From: Escherichia phage HansTraber_Bas100
Direction: 5' to 3' (one strand)
DNA length: 64,000 bases
Sequence record: PQ850605.1
Part shown: positions 2,482 to 59,961 of the stretch, piece by piece
Layout of the letters: the number at the start of each line of letters is the position of its first letter
How positions within the stretch are numbered: the first letter of the stretch is position 1
The notes under the pieces: generated by a model
Databases searched by the model: none
Told to the model about the DNA's origin: nothing
What the model saw: the letters and a program-made list of their open reading frames with translations, nothing else
Translations under genes and position numbers: made by a program

Positions 2482-3903
2482 ATGCGAATGCAAACGGCAC
2501 GCGAAATTGACAAAAATGGATTCTTGACGATTATGGGTTGTCCAATTTCGTCATTTGGCATTTTTGATTATTCTGCTGGTCAAGTTGGTCTTGATGGTGA
2601 TCCGAATCGCATCGTAAAAGTCTATCGCCCTGAGTCAGCGGTGAAAGACCCCGAAGCGATAGATTCATTCAAAAATATCCCTTTCATCGACAATCACGAA
2701 ATGCTTTCTGGATTTGAAGGTGATGAGGATAACACAGCACCCGAAGAGTATGGAGTTGATGGCGTTCTGACTGGCAATGTTTATTATGACAAGCCATGGA
2801 TGCGCGGCGACCTTAAAGTGTTCAGCCGTCGTCTGAAGAAGGCCATTGATTCTGGAAAGGTTGACTTGTCTTTGGGCTATGACTGTGAATTCATCATACA
2901 GTCTGGAGAGTTTGACGGGCAGCCGTATGAAGTGGTGCAGACAACTCTTCGCGGCAACCACATTGCTCTCGTGGACGTTGGTCGAGTACCAGGTGCACGG
3001 GTGCTGGATGGTCGTTGCTTTGACCATCTTTGTTTGACGACTGTAACACCATCCAACGAGGATTTAGACATGCCAAAACCGTTAAAAGGTAAAGCGCGTG
3101 ATAATGCTGTTGAACAGCTGAAATCACTGATCCCTGCGCTCGAACAATTTCTGAACGAAGAGAGTACTGAAGCTGCTCATCAGGATGAAGTTGAAGTGAA
3201 AGCAGAAGAGAAGGACTCAACCGAAAATCGTGAAGAAGTAATGGTTGATCCAGAAGTCAAGGCAGAAGCAGAAGAAACCCCAGAAGGTGAAGAGAAGTTT
3301 GAAGTTGAAACTGAATCTCACGCTGGCGGCGAACTTCCGCAATTGATCAGCCAAATCGAAGCACTTATTGCAAAACTGAAAGGTGGCGCGGTAGGTGATG
3401 AAGAAGAAGTTGAAGCCGAAGTCAAAGACGAAGAAGAAGTTGAAGTCAAGGCTGAAGATGTATCACCTTGCGACAAAGCTGAAGATGTGGTTAGCGGCCT
3501 GCAAAACAGCAACGTAAAGGGGGCTTCGGTCGAAAAAGATGACAAACCGACAAAAGCGGCGAAAGCGTCGCCAGGTCCAGCAAAAGGGGAACACTCAATG
3601 GCATCTGATTCAGCAGTTGCTGCTTTCTACGCTGATTCTGCTCGTAAGAATAGCCTCTACCAGCGCCTGTCTAAAGTTGTTGGTGCCTTTGATCATGCAA
3701 CTATGGACTCCAAGTCCGTAGCGAAATATGGCGCTAAAAAGTTAGGCTTGAAGTGCGTTGATGGGGCTGAGTTTGACGTGGTGGATAATTATCTGCGCGG
3801 CGTTGAGCACGGTCAAAAACAGCGTGTAGTCGCAAAACAAAAGGCCGCTGCGGATTCTGCAGCAACTGACGAAGCATTTGAAGCTTGGTTGAAAGGGGAA
3901 TAA
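2482..3903 (+). CDS. prohead protease / scaffold protein (Mu gpI-like), acidic helical C-terminal half
   Basis: N-terminal ~180 aa with RGNHIALVDVGR segment; C-terminal half is Glu/Lys/Ala-rich (EEVEVKAEEK..., EEEVEAEVKDEEEVEVKAED) typical of scaffold domains; immediately upstream of capsid gene. Confidence 0.5.
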   Translation: MRMQTAREIDKNGFLTIMGCPISSFGIFDYSAGQVGLDGDPNRIVKVYRPESAVKDPEAIDSFKNIPFIDNHEMLSGFEGDEDNTAPEEYGVDGVLTGNVYYDKPWMRGDLKVFSRRLKKAIDSGKVDLSLGYDCEFIIQSGEFDGQPYEVVQTTLRGNHIALVDVGRVPGARVLDGRCFDHLCLTTVTPSNEDLDMPKPLKGKARDNAVEQLKSLIPALEQFLNEESTEAAHQDEVEVKAEEKDSTENREEVMVDPEVKAEAEETPEGEEKFEVETESHAGGELPQLISQIEALIAKLKGGAVGDEEEVEAEVKDEEEVEVKAEDVSPCDKAEDVVSGLQNSNVKGASVEKDDKPTKAAKASPGPAKGEHSMASDSAVAAFYADSARKNSLYQRLSKVVGAFDHATMDSKSVAKYGAKKLGLKCVDGAEFDVVDNYLRGVEHGQKQRVVAKQKAAADSAATDEAFEAWLKGE

Positions 3904-54330: not shown

Positions 54331-54700
54331 GATACGCCTAAAATACGGTTAAAAATTAAGCGTATCATGGCTGCAGGCCGCGCCGTTGCTGGATTCCTAT
54401 TTTCAAAAGTGGTACACCCTTACGTCATGATACGTCATGGTTTTCTATCCGTAAGAGTGTACAGCCCTTGCCGCGCCTGGCTTGTACATTAATCTTACGG
54501 ATGATACGGATAAAACTGAGCATCGTTATATATAGAATTCGAAAAATTAATTAACTCCATTTTAAAAACATTTATATTAATTTTTTTCATATCCTCATAC
54601 TTATGTTAATTTATATATTTAACGTATCATCCGTAAGATATAAGTAAAAACAAAGACTTGCGGCAATACGGATGATACGTCATGATACGCTTCAACCAGC
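54331..54700. repeat. second iteron-like ATCCGTATC/GATACGGAT repeat region with similar AT-rich core
   Basis: Same architecture as 2108..2373; core TATATAGAATTCGAAAAATTAATTAAC closely resembles the first region. Confidence 0.6.
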
Positions 54701-54917
54701 CAGCAGCGGCTAAGTCATTGATTTGCATAACAAGCGGCGAAAGGGATGGATTTCTTTTATACGTATCAAACAGTACACCACGCACCACGGTCCGCTATTC
54801 ATTCAGCACTATGATTTATGTACTTTTACAGCCAATCTGAACATCAATCTGCACTTGAATATAATGTTCATTCATTGTATAATTCACACTATTAATTTGC
54901 ACTATGGGATTTGCACT

Positions 54918-55391
54918 ATGAGTCAAGATTATGTAGCAATGCCTGAAGACTTTGAAGACCCGCGATTTGCAGAGCATAATCAGGCATTATTCGATGAGTT
55001 CATTGACCTTGTTATTCAGGGCCATGACATGCGCGCAGCTTTTGCACTAGTATTTGGCATGGAGGTTGCGACCGATAACTACACTGGCCAGCGAATCCTC
55101 TGCACGCAACGCAATCCGTACTACAAGATGCGCTACAAAAAGCGTATGGAAGAGATGCCATTGAAGGAATTGTGGAGCGTAAAGAGTTCCATCCACAATT
55201 TAGTGAAGCTTGTGCGTGATCCAGAAGTCGCGGCGTCAGCCAAGCTTAATGCCATTCGTGAACTGAATATCATCTACGGCATCACGATGATTGATGAAAA
55301 TGGCAATAGTAAAATGGGCCGTTCCATGGACGATTTCTACAAGGATTTTGGAGAGGCAGCCAAAGAGGGTGAGCAATTCTCCCGCCACTAG
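54918..55391 (+). CDS. hypothetical protein (158 aa); start codon embedded in the ATTTGCACTATG motif
   Basis: Internal ATG at 54918 preceded by two motif copies; phage-like base composition; function unknown. Confidence 0.4.
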   Translation: MSQDYVAMPEDFEDPRFAEHNQALFDEFIDLVIQGHDMRAAFALVFGMEVATDNYTGQRILCTQRNPYYKMRYKKRMEEMPLKELWSVKSSIHNLVKLVRDPEVAASAKLNAIRELNIIYGITMIDENGNSKMGRSMDDFYKDFGEAAKEGEQFSRH

Positions 55392-55408
55392 CCAATTTGC
55401 ACTATAAA

Positions 55409-55446
55409 ATGGCCCTAGAACACATTTTCTCCACTTCTAGGGCCAT
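55409..55446. other. perfect 12-bp-stem hairpin (ATGGCCCTAGAA / TTCTAGGGCCAT, 14-nt loop)
   Basis: Perfect inverted repeat 3 nt after the motif copy at 55394-55405 and 18 nt after the stop of 54918..55391; no T-run. Confidence 0.5.
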
Positions 55447-55505
55447 CGGTAATACGACGGGGAAGGTTACAACCATAAACGCGTTAGAAAGTGTATTATT
55501 ATAAG

Positions 55506-55769
55506 TCATCTTTTAGTCACTTTACGTAACAATTTACGACCTTCCGCCGTCCAGTCGAACGACTCCACCAGCAGATTTGCACTATAACCTAAGACGATGC
55601 GTCCCTTCTCGTTATCGACCCGCCAACAAGTCTCGAATAGCATTCGATTTGCACTATTAACTATCGCCGCGACGCGCGTTGGGTAAGCGCAATTTGCACT
55701 ATGGTCATAAAGGGATAAGGTGCGACCGCTTCCGATGGACAACGTAGCGATAAGAATAAGCGTATTCAT
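55506..55769 (-). CDS. doubtful ORF reading through the motif array (motif encodes S-A-N three times)
   Basis: ORF track; hydrophobic N-terminus MNTLILIATLSIGSG; weak RBS; may be an artefact of the in-phase DNA repeats. Confidence 0.2.
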   Translation of the reverse strand: MNTLILIATLSIGSGRTLSLYDHSANCAYPTRVAAIVNSANRMLFETCWRVDNEKGRIVLGYSANLLVESFDWTAEGRKLLRKVTKR

Positions 55770-55819
55770 AAGCCACCAATTTGCACTATGAAAAGCGACC
55801 CCGAAGGGCCGCCATTCGA

Positions 55820-56446
55820 TTAGATAATCTGGAATGTGTAGGACTTGTTGCCGAACTCGAAGTTCAAGCGTCCAGCTTCCTTAAGCTTCATGCGGAAGCG
55901 AATGTGCTTGCTATCCGGTAATCCCAGCGCGGCGAACGCTACGCGGACCGATTTGAACTCGCCTACACCCTCGACCATGACACCGTTACGGGTGAGACGC
56001 TTTTGCGCCACTTCCTTATTATCCCAGCTTTTTGCAATACCTTCGCTATTCGAACGGCGATGGGAAGGAGTTCCATTTTGCACTACGCAATTTGCACTAT
56101 CGTTTAAACCGCTCTTAACGAAGGCTTCATACTCTTCGTCGGTCATCGCGTCGAGTTCTTCCTGGGTCGGCTCGGCCTTTTTAACGACCGCACGCGCCTT
56201 ATGCGTTTTTACATCGCTGGGCACTTCCTCGCGCGACTTCGCGTCTGGGATGGGCGACTCGTTGGACGGCTCATCGAGCGCGTTTAAGGACTCGATTAAC
56301 GCTATTACGCGAGTCTCGGCGGTCCGGCGGTCCGCAAATTTTTTGATCGGCTTCGAACCGGAATTTGCATTGTAAAATGCAACGAGGTCGGCGGTCTTAG
56401 TTGCGATAACGTCGCCGCTAGTCGAGAAACGATTTAAGCTAACCAT
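55820..56446 (-). CDS. hypothetical two-domain protein (208 aa) of the foreign cassette
   Basis: ATG with AGGAG RBS; structured N- and C-terminal regions separated by an acidic low-complexity linker; contains motif copies at 56075-56100; CpG-rich codon usage. Confidence 0.5.
   Translation of the reverse strand: MVSLNRFSTSGDVIATKTADLVAFYNANSGSKPIKKFADRRTAETRVIALIESLNALDEPSNESPIPDAKSREEVPSDVKTHKARAVVKKAEPTQEELDAMTDEEYEAFVKSGLNDSANCVVQNGTPSHRRSNSEGIAKSWDNKEVAQKRLTRNGVMVEGVGEFKSVRVAFAALGLPDSKHIRFRMKLKEAGRLNFEFGNKSYTFQII
56075..56100 (+). repeat. two adjacent motif copies (ATTTTGCACTAC, AATTTGCACTAT) inside the 208-aa gene
   Basis: Read directly; on the coding strand they translate as D-S-A-N-C-V-V-Q-N. 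Confidence 0.6.
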
Positions 56447-56526
56447 AATGAACTCCTATTTGTTAGGGCGCTAGGCGCGAAAGAATTTTATTAAAGCGCC
56501 GCGCACGACGCTCTAAAAATCCTCTC

Positions 56527-56811
56527 TTACGCTTCGACGAGGGAGAAGGTCTCAAATTCTTCTTCGCCCATAACGAGTAAGATGTTACCGATTTCGACCG
56601 CTTCGAAGAAGTATCCGTTAACGTTTACTTCGAAGGCTTCGCGGTCCGATTCCGGTAACGCCGCGTAAAGTTTAAAAGCCTCGGCGACCGTTACCCCACC
56701 CGCCTCGATAGTTTGGTCTACGTTCGCGGCGTAGACTTCGGATAAAATTTGTTTTACGCCGTAGTTCTCGACGATAGCGTTACGAATAGAAGAAACGTTA
56801 AGAATAGCCAT
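56527..56811 (-). CDS. small acidic protein, paralog family member 1 (94 aa)
   Basis: AGGAG RBS; shares SEVYAANVDQTIE and VNVNGYFFEAVEIG blocks with 57445..57735; net charge about -12. Confidence 0.5.
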   Translation of the reverse strand: MAILNVSSIRNAIVENYGVKQILSEVYAANVDQTIEAGGVTVAEAFKLYAALPESDREAFEVNVNGYFFEAVEIGNILLVMGEEEFETFSLVEA

Positions 56812-56834
56812 TTTAAACTCCTAGTTGGGAGAGG

Positions 56835-56860
56835 CGTTAACGACCTATTCGTTAACTCAT
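56835..56860 (-). promoter_or_regulatory. 5' leader element: mini-uORF (ATG-AGT-TAA) overlapping a hairpin GTTAACG-AATAGGT-CGTTAAC
   Basis: Conserved with the leader of 57445..57735; stem differs but stays complementary, loop AATAGGT identical. Confidence 0.45.
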
Positions 56861-56879
56861 CCCGTCCCGATATGAGTAC

Positions 56880-56907
56880 ATTATAATATAGTGTAGAAAA
56901 AAGTAAA
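56880..56907 (-). promoter_or_regulatory. cassette promoter P1 (TTTACT-17-TATAAT on the - strand)
   Basis: - strand reads GTGCTTTACTTTTTTCTACACTATATTATAATG, near-identical to P3. Confidence 0.45.
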
Positions 56908-56917
56908 GCACTTTTTC

Positions 56918-56944
56918 GATAAAAATGAGATAAATTATTTTATC
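56918..56944. promoter_or_regulatory. palindromic operator-like element between divergent promoters (GATAAAAA-11-TTTTTATC)
   Basis: 8-bp inverted repeat centred between the -35 elements of P1 and P2. Confidence 0.35.
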
Positions 56945-56951
56945 TTTTTTC

Positions 56952-56979
56952 TTTACTTCTTCGTACACTCGCGTATACT
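56952..56979 (+). promoter_or_regulatory. cassette promoter P2 (TTTACT-16-TATACT)
   Basis: CTTTACTTCTTCGTACACTCGCGTATACT shares the TTTACTTCTTCGTACACT block with P3. Confidence 0.4.
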
Positions 56980-57035
56980 TGTTTATATCGAGACGGGCGA
57001 TGGCCCTTCCTTCTACTAGCATCGGGAGTTTTATT

Positions 57036-57338
57036 ATGACTACTTTAATCTCTTCTATCCTTACTTACGACGAAGACCGTTTAACCGTTCGTTCTCTTAT
57101 CGCCGCCGTTAACGCGGAACTAGAATCCACCATCATTAAGGTCCGCGCGGTCGCTTTCGTCGGGCTTTCCTTCGACGATATGAAATACGCCGAACGTAGC
57201 GCCATCCGCTTCGCGAAGACCGACGACGAAGCCGTTACCCTTATCGAGACGGTTACGCCTCACGGCGAAGCGTTAATTATCGTCGAGTATATCGACGTAG
57301 AAGGCGATAAAGCTTATAAACATTTTATCGCAAAATAA
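57036..57338 (+). CDS. small acidic protein, possible divergent paralog family member 2 (100 aa)
   Basis: ATG with GGGAG RBS 7 nt upstream; an in-frame upstream ATG at 57000 is also possible; N-terminus MTTL resembles the other two. Confidence 0.45.
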   Translation: MTTLISSILTYDEDRLTVRSLIAAVNAELESTIIKVRAVAFVGLSFDDMKYAERSAIRFAKTDDEAVTLIETVTPHGEALIIVEYIDVEGDKAYKHFIAK

Positions 57339-57348
57339 CGAAAAGTGC

Positions 57349-57377
57349 TTTACTTCTTCGTACACTAAGACTATAAT
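57349..57377 (+). promoter_or_regulatory. cassette promoter P3 (TTTACT-17-TATAAT)
   Basis: GTGCTTTACTTCTTCGTACACTAAGACTATAATG upstream of 57445..57735. Confidence 0.45.
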
Positions 57378-57395
57378 GTTTTATATCGAGAGGGG

Positions 57396-57419
57396 ATGAG
57401 GTAGCGAATAGGTCGCTAC
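57396..57419 (+). promoter_or_regulatory. 5' leader element: mini-uORF (ATG-AGG-TAG) overlapping a hairpin GTAGCG-AATAGGT-CGCTAC
   Basis: Counterpart of the 56835..56860 element with compensatory stem changes. Confidence 0.45.
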
Positions 57420-57444
57420 CCGCCCGACCAACTAGGAGATTATT

Positions 57445-57735
57445 ATGATTACTTTAGCCGCTATCCGTTCCGCTCGCGTCGAGACTTCCGAAAACTCTAA
57501 CGTATTTGGCGAGACTTTAGAGAGCGTTTATCTCTCTAACGTCGACGCGACTATCGAGTCTATTTATGAGCCGATCAACTTCCTCGACCTTTACAAGTAT
57601 CGCGACGAGGACATCGTATCGTCCCGCGTAACGATCAACGGCTTCGTTTATACGATTACCGAAATCGGCGGCGAATATATCGCGGTCCCGCAACTCGGCG
57701 GCGAAGTAACTTATTTTAAAATCGTCTCCTTATAA
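57445..57735 (+). CDS. small acidic protein, paralog family member 3 (96 aa)
   Basis: AGGAG RBS; ESVYLSNVDATIES and VTINGFVYTITEIGG blocks shared with 56527..56811. Confidence 0.5.
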   Translation: MITLAAIRSARVETSENSNVFGETLESVYLSNVDATIESIYEPINFLDLYKYRDEDIVSSRVTINGFVYTITEIGGEYIAVPQLGGEVTYFKIVSL

Positions 57736-57755
57736 TACCCTTCCGTTACTAATAG

Positions 57756-57780
57756 GCCGCGCTTAGTCGCGGCTTTTCTT
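57756..57780 (+). terminator. rho-independent terminator (GCCGCG-CTTAGT-CGCGGC + TTTTCTT)
   Basis: Perfect 6-bp GC stem followed by a T-run 20 nt after the stop of 57445..57735. Confidence 0.6.
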
Positions 57781-57900
57781 CGTCCCTATCTCGTTGCGCT
57801 CCTACGCGAAAACTCCTTTATCCTTCCCTTCGTCGTCGCATAATCTTCGTCGGTATGCGCCTTAGTTCGCATAACAGGTATTACGTTAAATGGAGAACAT

Positions 57901-57973
57901 CGCGTAAGTCCTTGTTTTATATAGACACCTATATCGGACCGTTAGGGCGGGTCGCGTAAGTCGTTGTTTTATA
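57901..57973 (+). repeat. 21-bp direct repeat CGCGTAAGTC(C/G)TTGTTTTATA, two copies 52 bp apart
   Basis: Copies at 57901-57921 and 57953-57973 inside the 0.6-kb non-coding stretch; palindrome ATATAG-ACAC-CTATAT between them. Confidence 0.55.
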
Positions 57974-58202
57974 AAGGCGCAAAACTTTCCCTTCGTTCCG
58001 AACTAAAACGAGAAATATGCGGACCCTTCGCTCGAAAATAGTACGCATGCGAAATTACCGACATCTAGAATAATCCCCATCGATATTATCCTACGCGCAA
58101 CCATTCGCTTTCGAATTGTAACGCTGGAAACTGTAACGGCGATTGATTATTGCGTTCGTGTGGTTTTTAGGGCATGGGTCTTTTGGTGCGTTTTGCTACT
58201 TG

Positions 58203-58318
58203 ATGGAATTTGCAGTACACTAATCAAAATACGACACATTTGGTCCACTAACTTTTCAAAGAAAAAGTCCTAGACAGTACCGTACTATTTTGTATCCACA
58301 GGAAATTTGCAGTACACT
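58203..58318 (+). repeat. two copies of 17-bp GGAA(A)TTTGCAGTACACT, a variant of the left-end motif
   Basis: Copies at 58203-58219 and 58301-58318; palindrome CAGTACCGTACT between them at 58274-58286. Confidence 0.55.
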
Positions 58319-58390
58319 CCTGCGCGCGGCAGGCAAAATAAAGGGCCGCACTAAGCGACCCACGATTCACGGTTAAATCAACAACACCCA

Positions 58391-59880: not shown

Positions 59881-59927
59881 AAAACACCTCACTTGTTAAC
59901 GTATAATGAGTATAACTTAATTGCGCA

Positions 59928-59952
59928 TAAAGTAAAGGCGCTGAAAAGCGCC
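59928..59952 (-). terminator. terminator-like hairpin downstream of the second tail-fibre gene
   Basis: GGCGCTGAAAAGCGCC hairpin; on the - strand followed by a T-rich run. Confidence 0.4.
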
Positions 59953-59961
59953 TTGAGTGAA

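What the first reader, a model, noticed from the sequence alone, without database searches (positions are those of the whole stretch)
56527..57735. Three tandem/divergent small acidic paralogs with near-identical promoters
Genes 56527..56811 (-) and 57445..57735 (+) share protein blocks (SEVYAANVDQTIE / ESVYLSNVDATIES; VNVNGYFFEAVEIG / VTINGFVYTITEIGG), and their ~110-bp upstream regions are about 80% identical. 57036..57338 has a related promoter and N-terminus. All are around 95-100 aa with net negative charge. Recent duplication of a small acidic protein under a conserved control region is a pattern seen in DNA-mimic and host-takeover proteins, but no family could be assigned here.
Basis: partly seen in the sequence, partly recalled or inferred. 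Interest (0 to 1): 0.75.

Follow-up and report, generated by a model that had tools for sequence, protein, structure and literature searches.

The report
Early acidic genes, phage terminal repeat
Three small acidic genes of unknown function sit in the terminal repeat of an E. coli Wifcevirus phage, each behind its own copy of the same strong host-type promoter. Two of them are distant paralogues. This marks them as probable first-expressed host-takeover or anti-defence genes, but no fold, target or DNA-mimic character could be shown.

Summary
The window is a Wifcevirus myophage, 92-97% identical to Mansfield, WFC and Bas99. All three genes lie inside its ~3.7-kb direct terminal repeat (window 54559 to about 58264).

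A (56527-56811, -) and C (57445-57735, +) are true paralogues (30% identity, E 1e-5 to 1e-8). B (57036-57338, +) has no detectable similarity to either. All three share a 19-nt sigma-70-type promoter core found nowhere else in the window. The A and C upstream regions are 77% identical, while their coding DNA is only 46% identical and synonymous sites are saturated, so the duplication is not recent.

The A slot varies between strains: A in 11 GenBank records, an unrelated-looking 104-aa acidic gene in 11, and nothing in others, where the promoter and leader fuse directly to the next gene. More distant relatives (contig L008, Pantoea phage Kyle) repeat the layout.

No Pfam, PHROG, PDB or wider homologue was found, and both AlphaFold models were unusable (pLDDT 53-54).

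Best reading: an immediate-early, hyperplastic host-takeover or anti-defence module. It is analogous to the SPO1 and T5 terminal-repeat modules and to T4 PeSL cassettes. DNA mimicry remains untested. Interest is moderate.

The parts
54559..58264 (.). Direct terminal repeat (DTR) of the phage genome. It contains all the parts listed below. The right end is approximate (58183-58264).
   Evidence: The first bases of Mansfield and WFC map to window 54559. The Mansfield DTR is 3673 bp by PhageTerm. The two ends of WFC are 100% identical over 3784 bp (PMC6753283, PMC6563267).
56880..56907 (-). Leftward early promoter P_L: TTTACT, 16-nt spacer, TATAAT, with an A/T-rich upstream region.
   Evidence: Consensus scan scores 10/12. 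Core motif copy with 3 mismatches. Conserved in 8 related genomes.
56812..56873 (-). P_L leader (~62 nt). It begins AUAUCG, carries an 8-bp/5-nt-loop hairpin at 56836-56856, and ends in the SD sequence UAGGAG.
   Evidence: 77% identical to the C leader. Hairpin predicted and 100% paired in 8 distinct leaders.
56527..56811 (-). Gene A: 94 aa, net charge -12, pI 4.05. Family F1, paralogue of C. A strain-variable accessory slot.
   Evidence: Present in 11 GenBank records, replaced by a 104-aa gene in 11, absent in ECML-117 and RCIP0319.
55820..56446 (-). 208-aa conserved gene (phrog_4730), second gene of the P_L unit. It is fused directly to the P_L leader in strains that lack A.
   Evidence: dN/dS 0.02-0.08. 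Homologues in L008 and Kyle.
55506..55769 (-). 87-aa basic gene downstream of the 208-aa gene on the leftward strand.
   Evidence: Homologue in L008.
56952..56979 (+). Rightward early promoter P_B: TTTACT, 16-nt spacer, TATACT.
   Evidence: The identical 19-mer CTTTACTTCTTCGTACACT is found in the distant relative L008.
57036..57338 (+). Gene B: 100 aa, net charge -6, pI 4.79. Family F2, unrelated to A and C. Present in every Wifcevirus genome examined here.
   Evidence: A 125-aa homologue in L008. dN/dS 0.22-0.26.
57349..57377 (+). Rightward early promoter P_C: TTTACT, 17-nt spacer, TATAAT. It abuts the stop codon of B, with no terminator between them.
57383..57444 (+). P_C leader with hairpin GGUAGCGA-AUAGG-UCGCUACC (57400-57420) and SD sequence UAGGAG.
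57445..57735 (+). Gene C: 96 aa, net charge -8, pI 4.23. Family F1, paralogue of A. A divergent allele (65% aa identity) occurs in WFC and WFH.
   Evidence: A 103-aa homologue, P0040, in L008 (E 2e-11).
57754..57775 (+). Intrinsic terminator that closes the rightward B-C unit.
   Evidence: Terminator scan. Annotated as a terminator in Mansfield, WFC and WFH.

Best explanation
These are the immediate-early transcription units of a Wifcevirus phage, placed in the middle of its ~3.7-kb direct terminal repeat so that a copy sits at each end of the linear genome.

Proposed sequence of events:
1. Host sigma-70 RNA polymerase fires three copies of one promoter cassette: an A/T-rich upstream tract, (G)CTTTACTT as the -35, and TATAAT or TATACT as the -10.
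2. Each transcript starts near AUAUCG and carries a short leader with a stem-loop and a strong UAGGAG Shine-Dalgarno sequence.
3. Each expresses a ~95-100-aa soluble acidic protein at high level. P_L drives A, then the 208-aa and 87-aa genes. P_B drives B and reads through into C. P_C drives C.

A and C belong to one ORFan family. B belongs to a second. The 104-aa gene that replaces A in other strains belongs to a third.

The proteins most likely act stoichiometrically as inhibitors or decoys of host proteins, that is, in host takeover or anti-defence. A is a dispensable, exchangeable accessory. B and C are present in every genome of the genus examined here.

The repeated promoter/leader/SD sequences also serve as recombination joints through which small early genes are inserted, swapped and lost.

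Shown: location in the DTR, the promoter repeats, the A-C paralogy, the cassette variability, the lineage restriction, and purifying selection.
Inferred: early timing, promoter strength, leader function, and host-directed inhibitory activity.
For: Location
- The genes lie in the DTR (PMC6753283). The same layout sits inside the 3603-bp DTR of Pantoea phage Kyle and recurs in metagenomic relative L008.

Promoters
- The three-copy core motif is unique to this site.
- The window has only four CTTTACT-type promoters. It has only three sites with a near-consensus -35 plus a perfect TATAAT, and two of those are P_L and P_C.

Real genes
- The ORFs and their SD sequences are conserved in 8 genomes.
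- dN/dS is 0.06-0.44. That is below 1, but 3-10 times higher for B, and for the divergent C allele, than for the neighbouring genes at 0.02-0.08.

Acidity
- A is the most acidic of 91 ORFs in the window and C is 4th.
- The counterparts in L008, WFC and Kyle have net charge per residue of -0.11 to -0.19.

ORFan status
- No Pfam or PHROG family matches.
- Homologues occur only in this clade among 5.8 billion clusters, and in an exhaustive search of 1.8 billion representatives.

Plasticity
- The P_L slot holds A, the 104-aa gene, or nothing.
- RCIP0363 has an extra 50-aa gene flanked by AAATAACGAAAAAG direct repeats.
- C in WFC is a divergent allele: dS 0.67 against 0.12-0.30 in the flanking genes.

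Leader hairpin
- It is 100% paired in 8 distinct leaders, with 2 compensatory pairs and a G-U intermediate.

Context from papers
- The window itself carries 19 EcoRI, 4 EcoKI and 3 EcoRV sites.
Against: - No transcript, timing or phenotype data exist for any Wifcevirus early gene. The promoter calls are consensus matches only.
- No fold was obtained. AlphaFold pLDDT was 53 and 54. Foldseek on those models returned only the WFH orthologue.
- B and C are present in every genome examined and are under purifying selection. That fits a fixed role in the phage programme as well as it fits an arms-race role.
- B is only mildly acidic.
- The leader folds are not significantly more stable than shuffled sequences (z -1.3 to -1.8). 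The covariation rests on about two independent events.
- The resistance to type II RM systems reported for relatives would not be explained by a classical type I DNA mimic. Unrecognised DNA modification could explain it.
Confidence: 0.55

Rival explanations
1. A specific version of the first reader's idea. One or more of A, C, the 104-aa gene or B are DNA-mimic anti-restriction proteins of the Ocr, ArdA or Arn type. They would occupy the DNA-binding groove of type I RM, BREX or other DNA-binding defence enzymes, and would account for the RM resistance of Wifcevirus phages.
For: - The proteins are acidic: pI 4.05-4.23, and A is the most acidic ORF in the window.
- They are probably expressed first, from the DTR.
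- The A slot varies between strains.
- Bas98-101 are RM-resistant with no known protection mechanism (10.1101/2024.09.12.612763).
- RM sites are present in the window.
- There is a precedent: a DNA mimic, Gp44, sits in the SPO1 terminal-redundancy host-takeover module (PMC8208478).
Against: - No sequence or profile similarity to any known mimic or solved structure.
- No usable model on which to inspect charge geometry.
- Charge density of -0.06 to -0.13 per residue is, from my own knowledge, well below that of Ocr (about -0.24).
- RM resistance is the same in Bas99, which carries A, and in Bas98 and Bas101, which carry the 104-aa gene.
- The resistance includes type II enzymes, which Ocr-type mimics do not block.
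Confidence: 0.15
2. B and/or C are regulators of the phage's own programme. They would be small RNA-polymerase-binding factors (anti-sigma or appropriator-like) that switch host RNA polymerase from these early promoters to middle or late phage promoters.
For: - B and C are present in every Wifcevirus genome examined and are under purifying selection.
- The distantly related Pbunavirus 14-1 depends on host RNA polymerase, has a second, non-sigma-70 promoter class, and has an early protein (gp12) thought to redirect RNA polymerase (PMC10914365).
- The window has no tblastn match (E<=1e-3) to any of the fourteen 14-1 proteins tested (gp01-gp16, without gp03 and gp11), including gp12. If that role exists here, it is vacant.
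Against: - No similarity to any known RNA-polymerase-binding phage protein.
- A second promoter class was not looked for in this window.
- Two paralogues plus a swappable slot fits accessory functions better than a single essential switch.
Confidence: 0.15
3. The proteins serve a phage-internal DNA transaction tied to the terminal repeat. Examples are completion of genome entry (as with T5 A1/A2), end protection, circularisation or recombination of the repeats, or packaging.
For: - They lie inside the DTR next to a TerS-like gene.
- An oriented array of ATTTGCACTAT motifs lies nearby.
- T5 keeps the genes needed for second-step DNA transfer in its terminal repeat (my own knowledge).
Against: - No homology to T5 pre-early proteins or to any DNA-handling family.
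- Acidic proteins are poor DNA binders.
- A is dispensable in natural isolates.
Confidence: 0.08
4. The ORFs are not functional genes, and the similarity is only repeated non-coding promoter DNA.
For: No known family matches. All are annotated only as 'hypothetical protein'.
Against: - The ORFs are intact, with SD sequences at the right spacing, in all genomes examined.
- dN/dS is below 1.
- Protein-level homologues at 35% identity persist in L008, where the DNA has diverged.
Confidence: 0.02

Closest known systems
[quoted passage not shown] 1998, cited in PMC8208478; PMC6873191)
   Same: A cluster of small genes inside a long terminal repeat. They are driven by several strong host-type early promoters with strong ribosome-binding sites. 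Most of the products are lineage-restricted, and some are highly acidic (Gp44 is a DNA mimic that inhibits RNA polymerase).
   Different: There is no sequence homology. Here the cluster has 3-5 genes in a 3.7-kb repeat, against about 24-26 genes in about 13 kb. The host is Gram-negative. No shut-off phenotype is known.
T5 pre-early (first-step-transfer) region in the T5 terminal repeat; T7 class I genes including Ocr (my own knowledge)
   Same: The first DNA to enter carries sigma-70 promoters and small host-directed proteins, including anti-restriction functions.
   Different: No homology. Two-step DNA transfer is not known for Wifcevirus myophages. T7 has only a short repeat, and its early genes lie outside it.
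PeSL (promoter-early stem-loop) mobile regulatory cassettes of T4-like phages (PMC2839356, PMC4122927)
   Same: A repeated composite motif: an A/T-rich tract, a sigma-70-like promoter, a stem-loop, an SD sequence and a start codon, placed immediately upstream of ORFans. Insertions, deletions and replacements between close relatives have their end-points in the repeated motif.
   Different: This is a different phage lineage, and there are only 3-4 copies rather than about 50. The stem-loop lies in the transcribed leader at about +18 to +38 and has no U-tract, so it is unlikely to be a terminator. No mini-circles are known.
Small acidic DNA-mimic inhibitors: Ocr, ArdA, Arn, Ugi (my own knowledge)
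   Same: Similar size (84-166 aa), low pI and early expression. Ugi (84 aa, about -12 net charge, alpha/beta) is similar to A in size and charge.
   Different: No sequence or profile match. No fold was obtained. Charge density is lower than in Ocr or ArdA. No activity data.

Membership tests
   BLASTP gives 30% identity over 79 aa, E 1e-5. Against the WFC allele of C, E is 1e-6 to 1e-8. Both hit the same third homologue, P0040.
   No BLASTP alignment at E<=100. phmmer E 0.2-0.6. hhalign probability 0.06-0.2%.
DNA-mimic anti-restriction proteins (Ocr, ArdA, Arn type) | Sequence or profile membership in a known mimic family | tested here: not met
   No Pfam or PHROG hit for A, B or C. Profile searches of all PDB sequences gave nothing below E 0.16.
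DNA-mimic anti-restriction proteins (Ocr, ArdA, Arn type) | A surface array of carboxylates that imitates the phosphate backbone of DNA | tested here: inconclusive
   Net charges are -12, -6 and -8. AlphaFold models had pLDDT 53-54, so no surface could be examined.
DNA-mimic anti-restriction proteins (Ocr, ArdA, Arn type) | Binds and inhibits a DNA-binding host enzyme | not testable with these tools
   This needs expression and binding assays.
Terminal-repeat host-takeover module (SPO1 or T5 type) | Genes located inside a long direct terminal repeat | tested here: met
   The DTR spans 54559 to about 58264. The same holds in Kyle.
Terminal-repeat host-takeover module (SPO1 or T5 type) | Multiple strong host-type promoters and strong ribosome-binding sites in front of small genes | tested here: met
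   and SD sequence UAGGAG 7-8 nt before each AUG. This is a sequence-level test only; promoter activity was not measured.
Terminal-repeat host-takeover module (SPO1 or T5 type) | The products shut off or redirect host functions | not testable with these tools
   No experimental data were found.
Terminal-repeat host-takeover module (SPO1 or T5 type) | Homology to SPO1 or T5 module proteins | tested here: not met
   No PHROG or Pfam family is shared.
PeSL-type mobile regulatory cassettes | A repeated composite of an A/T-rich tract, a sigma-70-like promoter, a stem-loop, an SD sequence and a start codon, upstream of ORFans | tested here: met
   The definition is taken from PMC2839356, section 13.
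PeSL-type mobile regulatory cassettes | The stem-loop acts as a terminator or attenuator | tested here: inconclusive
   The hairpin has no U-tract and lies in the transcribed leader. The terminator scan does not call it.
PeSL-type mobile regulatory cassettes | Indels and replacements between close relatives are bounded by the cassettes | tested here: met
   A, the 104-aa gene or nothing follows the same leader/SD sequence. The RCIP0363 insertion is flanked by the repeated upstream tract.
PeSL-type mobile regulatory cassettes | Occurs in T4-like (Tevenvirinae) genomes, in dozens of copies | tested here: not met
   This is a Wifcevirus. Only four CTTTACT-type promoters occur in 64 kb.

The most novel reading that the evidence does not exclude
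The A/C family, possibly together with B and the alternative 104-aa gene, is a new class of immediate-early defence inhibitors. It would explain why Wifcevirus phages resist nearly all tested restriction-modification and other defence systems without any known genome protection. The conserved promoter-leader cassette, whose covarying hairpin has an invariant AUAGG loop, would be a dedicated regulatory RNA element (an operator or processing site) that also acts as the recombination joint for swapping such inhibitors.
Probability: 0.15. Interest if true: 0.7.

Novelty: new member of a known kind. Interest (0 to 1): 0.4.

Why it matters
Wifcevirus phages are used against E. coli O157. They are reported to replicate unusually fast and to ignore almost every tested defence system, with no known mechanism (10.1101/2024.09.12.612763).

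This work narrows the search for that mechanism to a handful of first-expressed ORFans in the terminal repeat. It identifies which are present in every genome examined (B, C) and which are swappable (A or the 104-aa gene). It gives exact promoter, leader and gene coordinates for cloning.

It also shows PeSL-like promoter-mediated gene shuffling outside the T4 group.

If the genes turn out to be ordinary early proteins, the result is simply a better annotation of a hypothetical-gene cluster.

Tried and rejected
- Pfam and PHROG scans of A, B, C and seven neighbouring genes. Nothing for A, B or C. Only phrog_4730 (208-aa gene) and phrog_4783 (TerS-like gene) for the neighbours.
- Word-indexed homologue searches with C, A and B. 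Only Wifcevirus-like proteins were found.
- Exhaustive profile search of 1.84 billion representatives with the A+C profile. It gave one true new homologue, P0040. It also gave three giant Big_13-repeat proteins, whose scores come from summing many short beta-hairpin matches. I rejected these as spurious.
- AlphaFold2 on C (9-sequence alignment) and B (20-sequence alignment). pLDDT was 53.4 and 54.4, which is unusable.
- Foldseek of both models against viral structures. It returned only the WFH orthologue and noise. The third fold-search job was not spent on such models.
- Profile searches of all PDB sequences with three family profiles. Nothing.
- hhalign of the A/C family against the 104-aa/Kyle94 family. 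The alignment is colinear but weak (P 0.01, probability 4%), so I left it as a hint, not a finding.
- Rfam scan of the region. Nothing relevant.
- Exact scan of IMG/VR for the promoter core. It found known Wifcevirus genomes plus one chance hit inside an unrelated terminase gene, L010.
- Distant homologues of the 208-aa gene (L024, L026-L036, 33-48% identity). Their genomic contexts differ and they carry no A/C or B homologues.
- Comparison with the left-end genes of Pbunavirus 14-1, including the RNA-polymerase-binding gp12. No homology to the window.
- Literature searches for functional work on these genes. None was found.
Full report
**What the window is**

A 3-kb query around the finding matches 28 phage records at 92-97% identity, all Wifcevirus myophages of E. 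coli or Shigella: RCIP0363, AV128, Mansfield, WFC, WFH, ECML-117, vB_Eco4M-7 and Bas98-101. In Mansfield the three genes are gp005, gp006 and gp007, all annotated 'hypothetical protein'. They lie inside a feature annotated as the 3673-bp direct terminal repeat predicted by PhageTerm (PMC6753283). Base 1 of Mansfield and of WFC maps to window 54559. The two ends of the WFC record are 100% identical over 3784 bp. The repeat therefore spans window 54559 to about 58183-58264, and the three genes sit in its middle.

**Checking the observation**

The ORFs are as described. Their lengths are 94, 100 and 96 aa. Net charges are -12, -6 and -8, and pI values are 4.05, 4.79 and 4.23. Among 91 greedy non-overlapping ORFs of the window, A is the most acidic per residue and C is fourth. 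B is unremarkable.

A and C are homologous.
- BLASTP gives 30% identity over 79 aa, E 1e-5.
- A against the WFC allele of C gives E 1e-6 to 1e-8.
- Both match a third homologue, P0040.

B is not detectably related to either.
- BLASTP finds no alignment at E<=100.
- phmmer gives E 0.2-0.6.
- Profile-profile probability is at most 0.2%.

The 'related N-terminus' of B is four codons that belong to a shared 17-nt SD/start block (D13).

The promoter claim holds. CTTTACTTCTTCGTACAC occurs three times in the window at up to 3 mismatches, against 0.02 expected, once upstream of each gene. The A and C upstream regions are 77% identical over 115 columns. B shares the 19-nt core and the start of the leader, but is only 55-59% identical overall.

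The duplication is not recent. A and C coding DNA is 46% identical and dS is about 1.6, which is saturated. The regulatory DNA is thus far better conserved than the genes it drives.

**Anatomy of the control region**

Each cassette has five parts.
- An A/T-rich tract.
- (G)CTTTACTT as the -35.
- A 16-17-nt spacer.
- TATAAT (P_L, P_C) or TATACT (P_B) as the -10.
- A ~62-nt leader that begins AUAUCG and ends in UAGGAG 7-8 nt before the AUG.

Only four CTTTACT-type promoters exist in the 64 kb. Only three sites combine a near-consensus -35 with a perfect TATAAT, and two of those are P_L and P_C.

The A and C leaders contain an 8-bp hairpin with an invariant AUAGG loop, at 56836-56856 (-) and 57400-57420 (+). 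Across eight distinct leaders every cell is paired. Two pairs differ by compensatory double changes, and one shows a G-U intermediate. Folding energy alone is not significant (z -1.3 to -1.8), and the covariation amounts to about two events. I treat the hairpin as probable, not proven. It has no U-tract, so it is probably not a terminator. B's leader has a smaller, different hairpin.

There is no terminator between B and P_C. A good terminator follows C at 57754-57775.

**Variability between strains**

In ECML-117 and RCIP0319 gene A is missing, and the P_L leader is fused directly to the 208-aa gene. In WFC, WFH, Bas101, Bas98, CWP003 and FEC19 the same slot holds a different 104-aa gene with net charge -15. 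Across GenBank, A occurs in 11 records and the 104-aa gene in 11 records. The 104-aa protein is only marginally similar to A: 25% identity with pairwise E 1e-3, and hhalign P 0.01.

RCIP0363 has an extra 50-aa gene between B and P_C. It is flanked by AAATAACGAAAAAG direct repeats, which are the promoter's upstream tract.

C in WFC and WFH is a divergent allele. Its aa identity is 65%, and its dS is 0.67 against 0.12-0.30 for the flanking genes. That indicates replacement by recombination.

dN/dS is 0.22-0.26 for B and 0.06-0.44 for C, against 0.02-0.08 for the neighbours. These are real genes under weaker constraint.

**Wider relatives**

None of the three has a Pfam or PHROG family. Searches of 5.8 billion protein clusters find only Wifcevirus-like sequences.

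An exhaustive profile search of 1.84 billion representatives adds one true homologue, P0040 (103 aa, E 2e-11). It also returns repeat-driven false positives in Big_13 adhesins.

P0040 lies on a 23-kb metagenomic contig, L008, with the same architecture. A leftward promoter drives homologues of the 208-aa and 87-aa genes. A rightward promoter carries the identical 19-mer CTTTACTTCTTCGTACACT and drives the C-like gene. That gene is followed by a 125-aa B homologue with net charge -19, and then by an unrelated 97-aa gene.

Pantoea phage Kyle has a 3603-bp DTR. It again has CTTTACT/TATAAT promoters in front of single small genes, including 94-aa (net -18) and 88-aa (net -10) acidic proteins. The 94-aa protein is related to the 104-aa Wifcevirus gene.

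In the window A and C share an extended leader, and in Kyle two rightward leaders are near-identical to each other. Leaders differ between lineages. This points to concerted evolution or recombination among the cassettes. The left-end genes of the distantly related Pbunavirus 14-1 share nothing with this window.

**Attempts to get at function**

AlphaFold2 with the available shallow alignments gave pLDDT 53.4 for C and 54.4 for B. Both models suggested a C-terminal four-strand beta meander, but they are not reliable. Foldseek on them returned only the WFH orthologue. Profile searches of all PDB sequences found nothing. No paper reports transcription or function for these genes.

**Interpretation**

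The best-supported reading is an immediate-early, hyperplastic module. Strong sigma-70 promoter cassettes sit in the terminal repeat, each expressing a small, soluble, acidic, lineage-restricted protein. Such proteins in other phages are host-takeover or anti-defence inhibitors. The closest analogues are these.
- The SPO1 host-takeover module in its terminal redundancy, which includes the acidic DNA mimic Gp44 (PMC8208478, PMC6873191).
- The T5 pre-early region (my own knowledge).
- For the regulatory repeats and the gene shuffling, the PeSL cassettes of T4-like phages (PMC2839356).

[quoted passage not shown] The window carries 19 EcoRI, 4 EcoKI and 3 EcoRV sites. Some active protection must therefore exist, and these genes are reasonable candidates.

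That evidence is circumstantial. Resistance is the same in strains that carry A and in strains that carry the 104-aa gene. It extends to type II enzymes, which classical DNA mimics do not block. Unrecognised DNA modification is an alternative.

The specific DNA-mimic claim is untested. Acidity is the only positive indicator, and it is modest next to Ocr (my own knowledge).

A serious rival is that B and C are RNA-polymerase-directed regulators of the phage programme, by analogy with 14-1 gp12 (PMC10914365).

**Verdict**

This is a new member of a known kind. The genes are already annotated as hypothetical. Their position in the DTR, the promoter-cassette structure and the slot variability had apparently not been described. 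Interest is moderate (0.4).

Noticed in passing
window 54895-56100 (+ strand): There are eight exact copies of the 11-mer ATTTGCACTAT, all in one orientation and all within 1.2 kb of the left half of the terminal repeat. About 1.9 matches are expected in the whole window at up to 1 mismatch. Two copies lie just before or over the start of the TerS-like gene at 54918. Others lie inside the opposite-strand 87-aa and 208-aa genes. The array is conserved in L008 (7 copies of TTTGCACTA, same relative orientation). This is a candidate protein-binding array, for terminase/packaging or another DTR function.
   Followed up: partly
window 54482-54680: The left boundary of the terminal repeat (54559) lies at the centre of a 27-nt inverted repeat with 85% complementary arms (54482-54508 and 54623-54649). 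The arms contain the motif ACGGATGATACG, which recurs at 54669-54680. This is a possible terminase recognition or cutting signal.
   Followed up: no
window 58206-58222 and 58302-58320; also 57900-57924 and 57952-57976: Direct repeats AATTTGCAGTACACT bracket the approximate right boundary of the terminal repeat and resemble the ATTTGCA motif of the left-hand array. A separate pair of 25-nt direct repeats (TCGCGTAAGTCNTTGTTTTATANAG, 92% identical) lies 52 nt apart in the non-coding right part of the repeat.
   Followed up: no
window 56836-56856 (-) and 57400-57420 (+): The 5' leaders of A and C contain an 8-bp hairpin with an invariant AUAGG loop. Two base pairs differ by compensatory changes, with a G-U intermediate in ECML-117 and RCIP0319. 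There is no U-tract. Its function is unknown: mRNA stabiliser, processing site or protein operator.
   Followed up: partly
window 59909-59937 (-): A fourth CTTTACT-type promoter (TTTACT, 16-nt spacer, TATACT) lies just outside the terminal repeat. It overlaps the terminator-like hairpin 59935-59954 (-) immediately downstream of the tail-fibre gene. It heads a leftward run of small unknown genes from 59892 to 58391. This is probably a further early unit.
   Followed up: no
window 55820-56446 (-): The 208-aa gene driven by P_L (phrog_4730, function unknown) has homologues at 33-50% identity in many otherwise different phage contigs (L023-L036), in several cases next to a long ORF that may be the large terminase (not verified). 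A conserved N-terminal motif reads ELVxFYN..KP(I/V)KKFADRKTAEKRV. The C-terminal motif KRLTRNGV..EFKS.R.AF..L.LPDSKHIRFR.KLK is conserved between the window and L008.
   Followed up: partly
whole window: GATC is strongly under-represented (101 observed against about 259 expected). BamHI sites are absent (0 against about 9) and EcoRV sites are few (3 against about 13). EcoRI (19), EcoP1I (83) and Dcm sites are near expectation.
   Followed up: partly
L003 (RCIP0363) 3357-3509: An extra 50-aa basic ORF is inserted between B and the C promoter in this one strain. It has its own SD sequence and is flanked by 14-nt direct repeats AAATAACGAAAAAG. This is an example of small-gene gain at the promoter's upstream tract.
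   Followed up: partly
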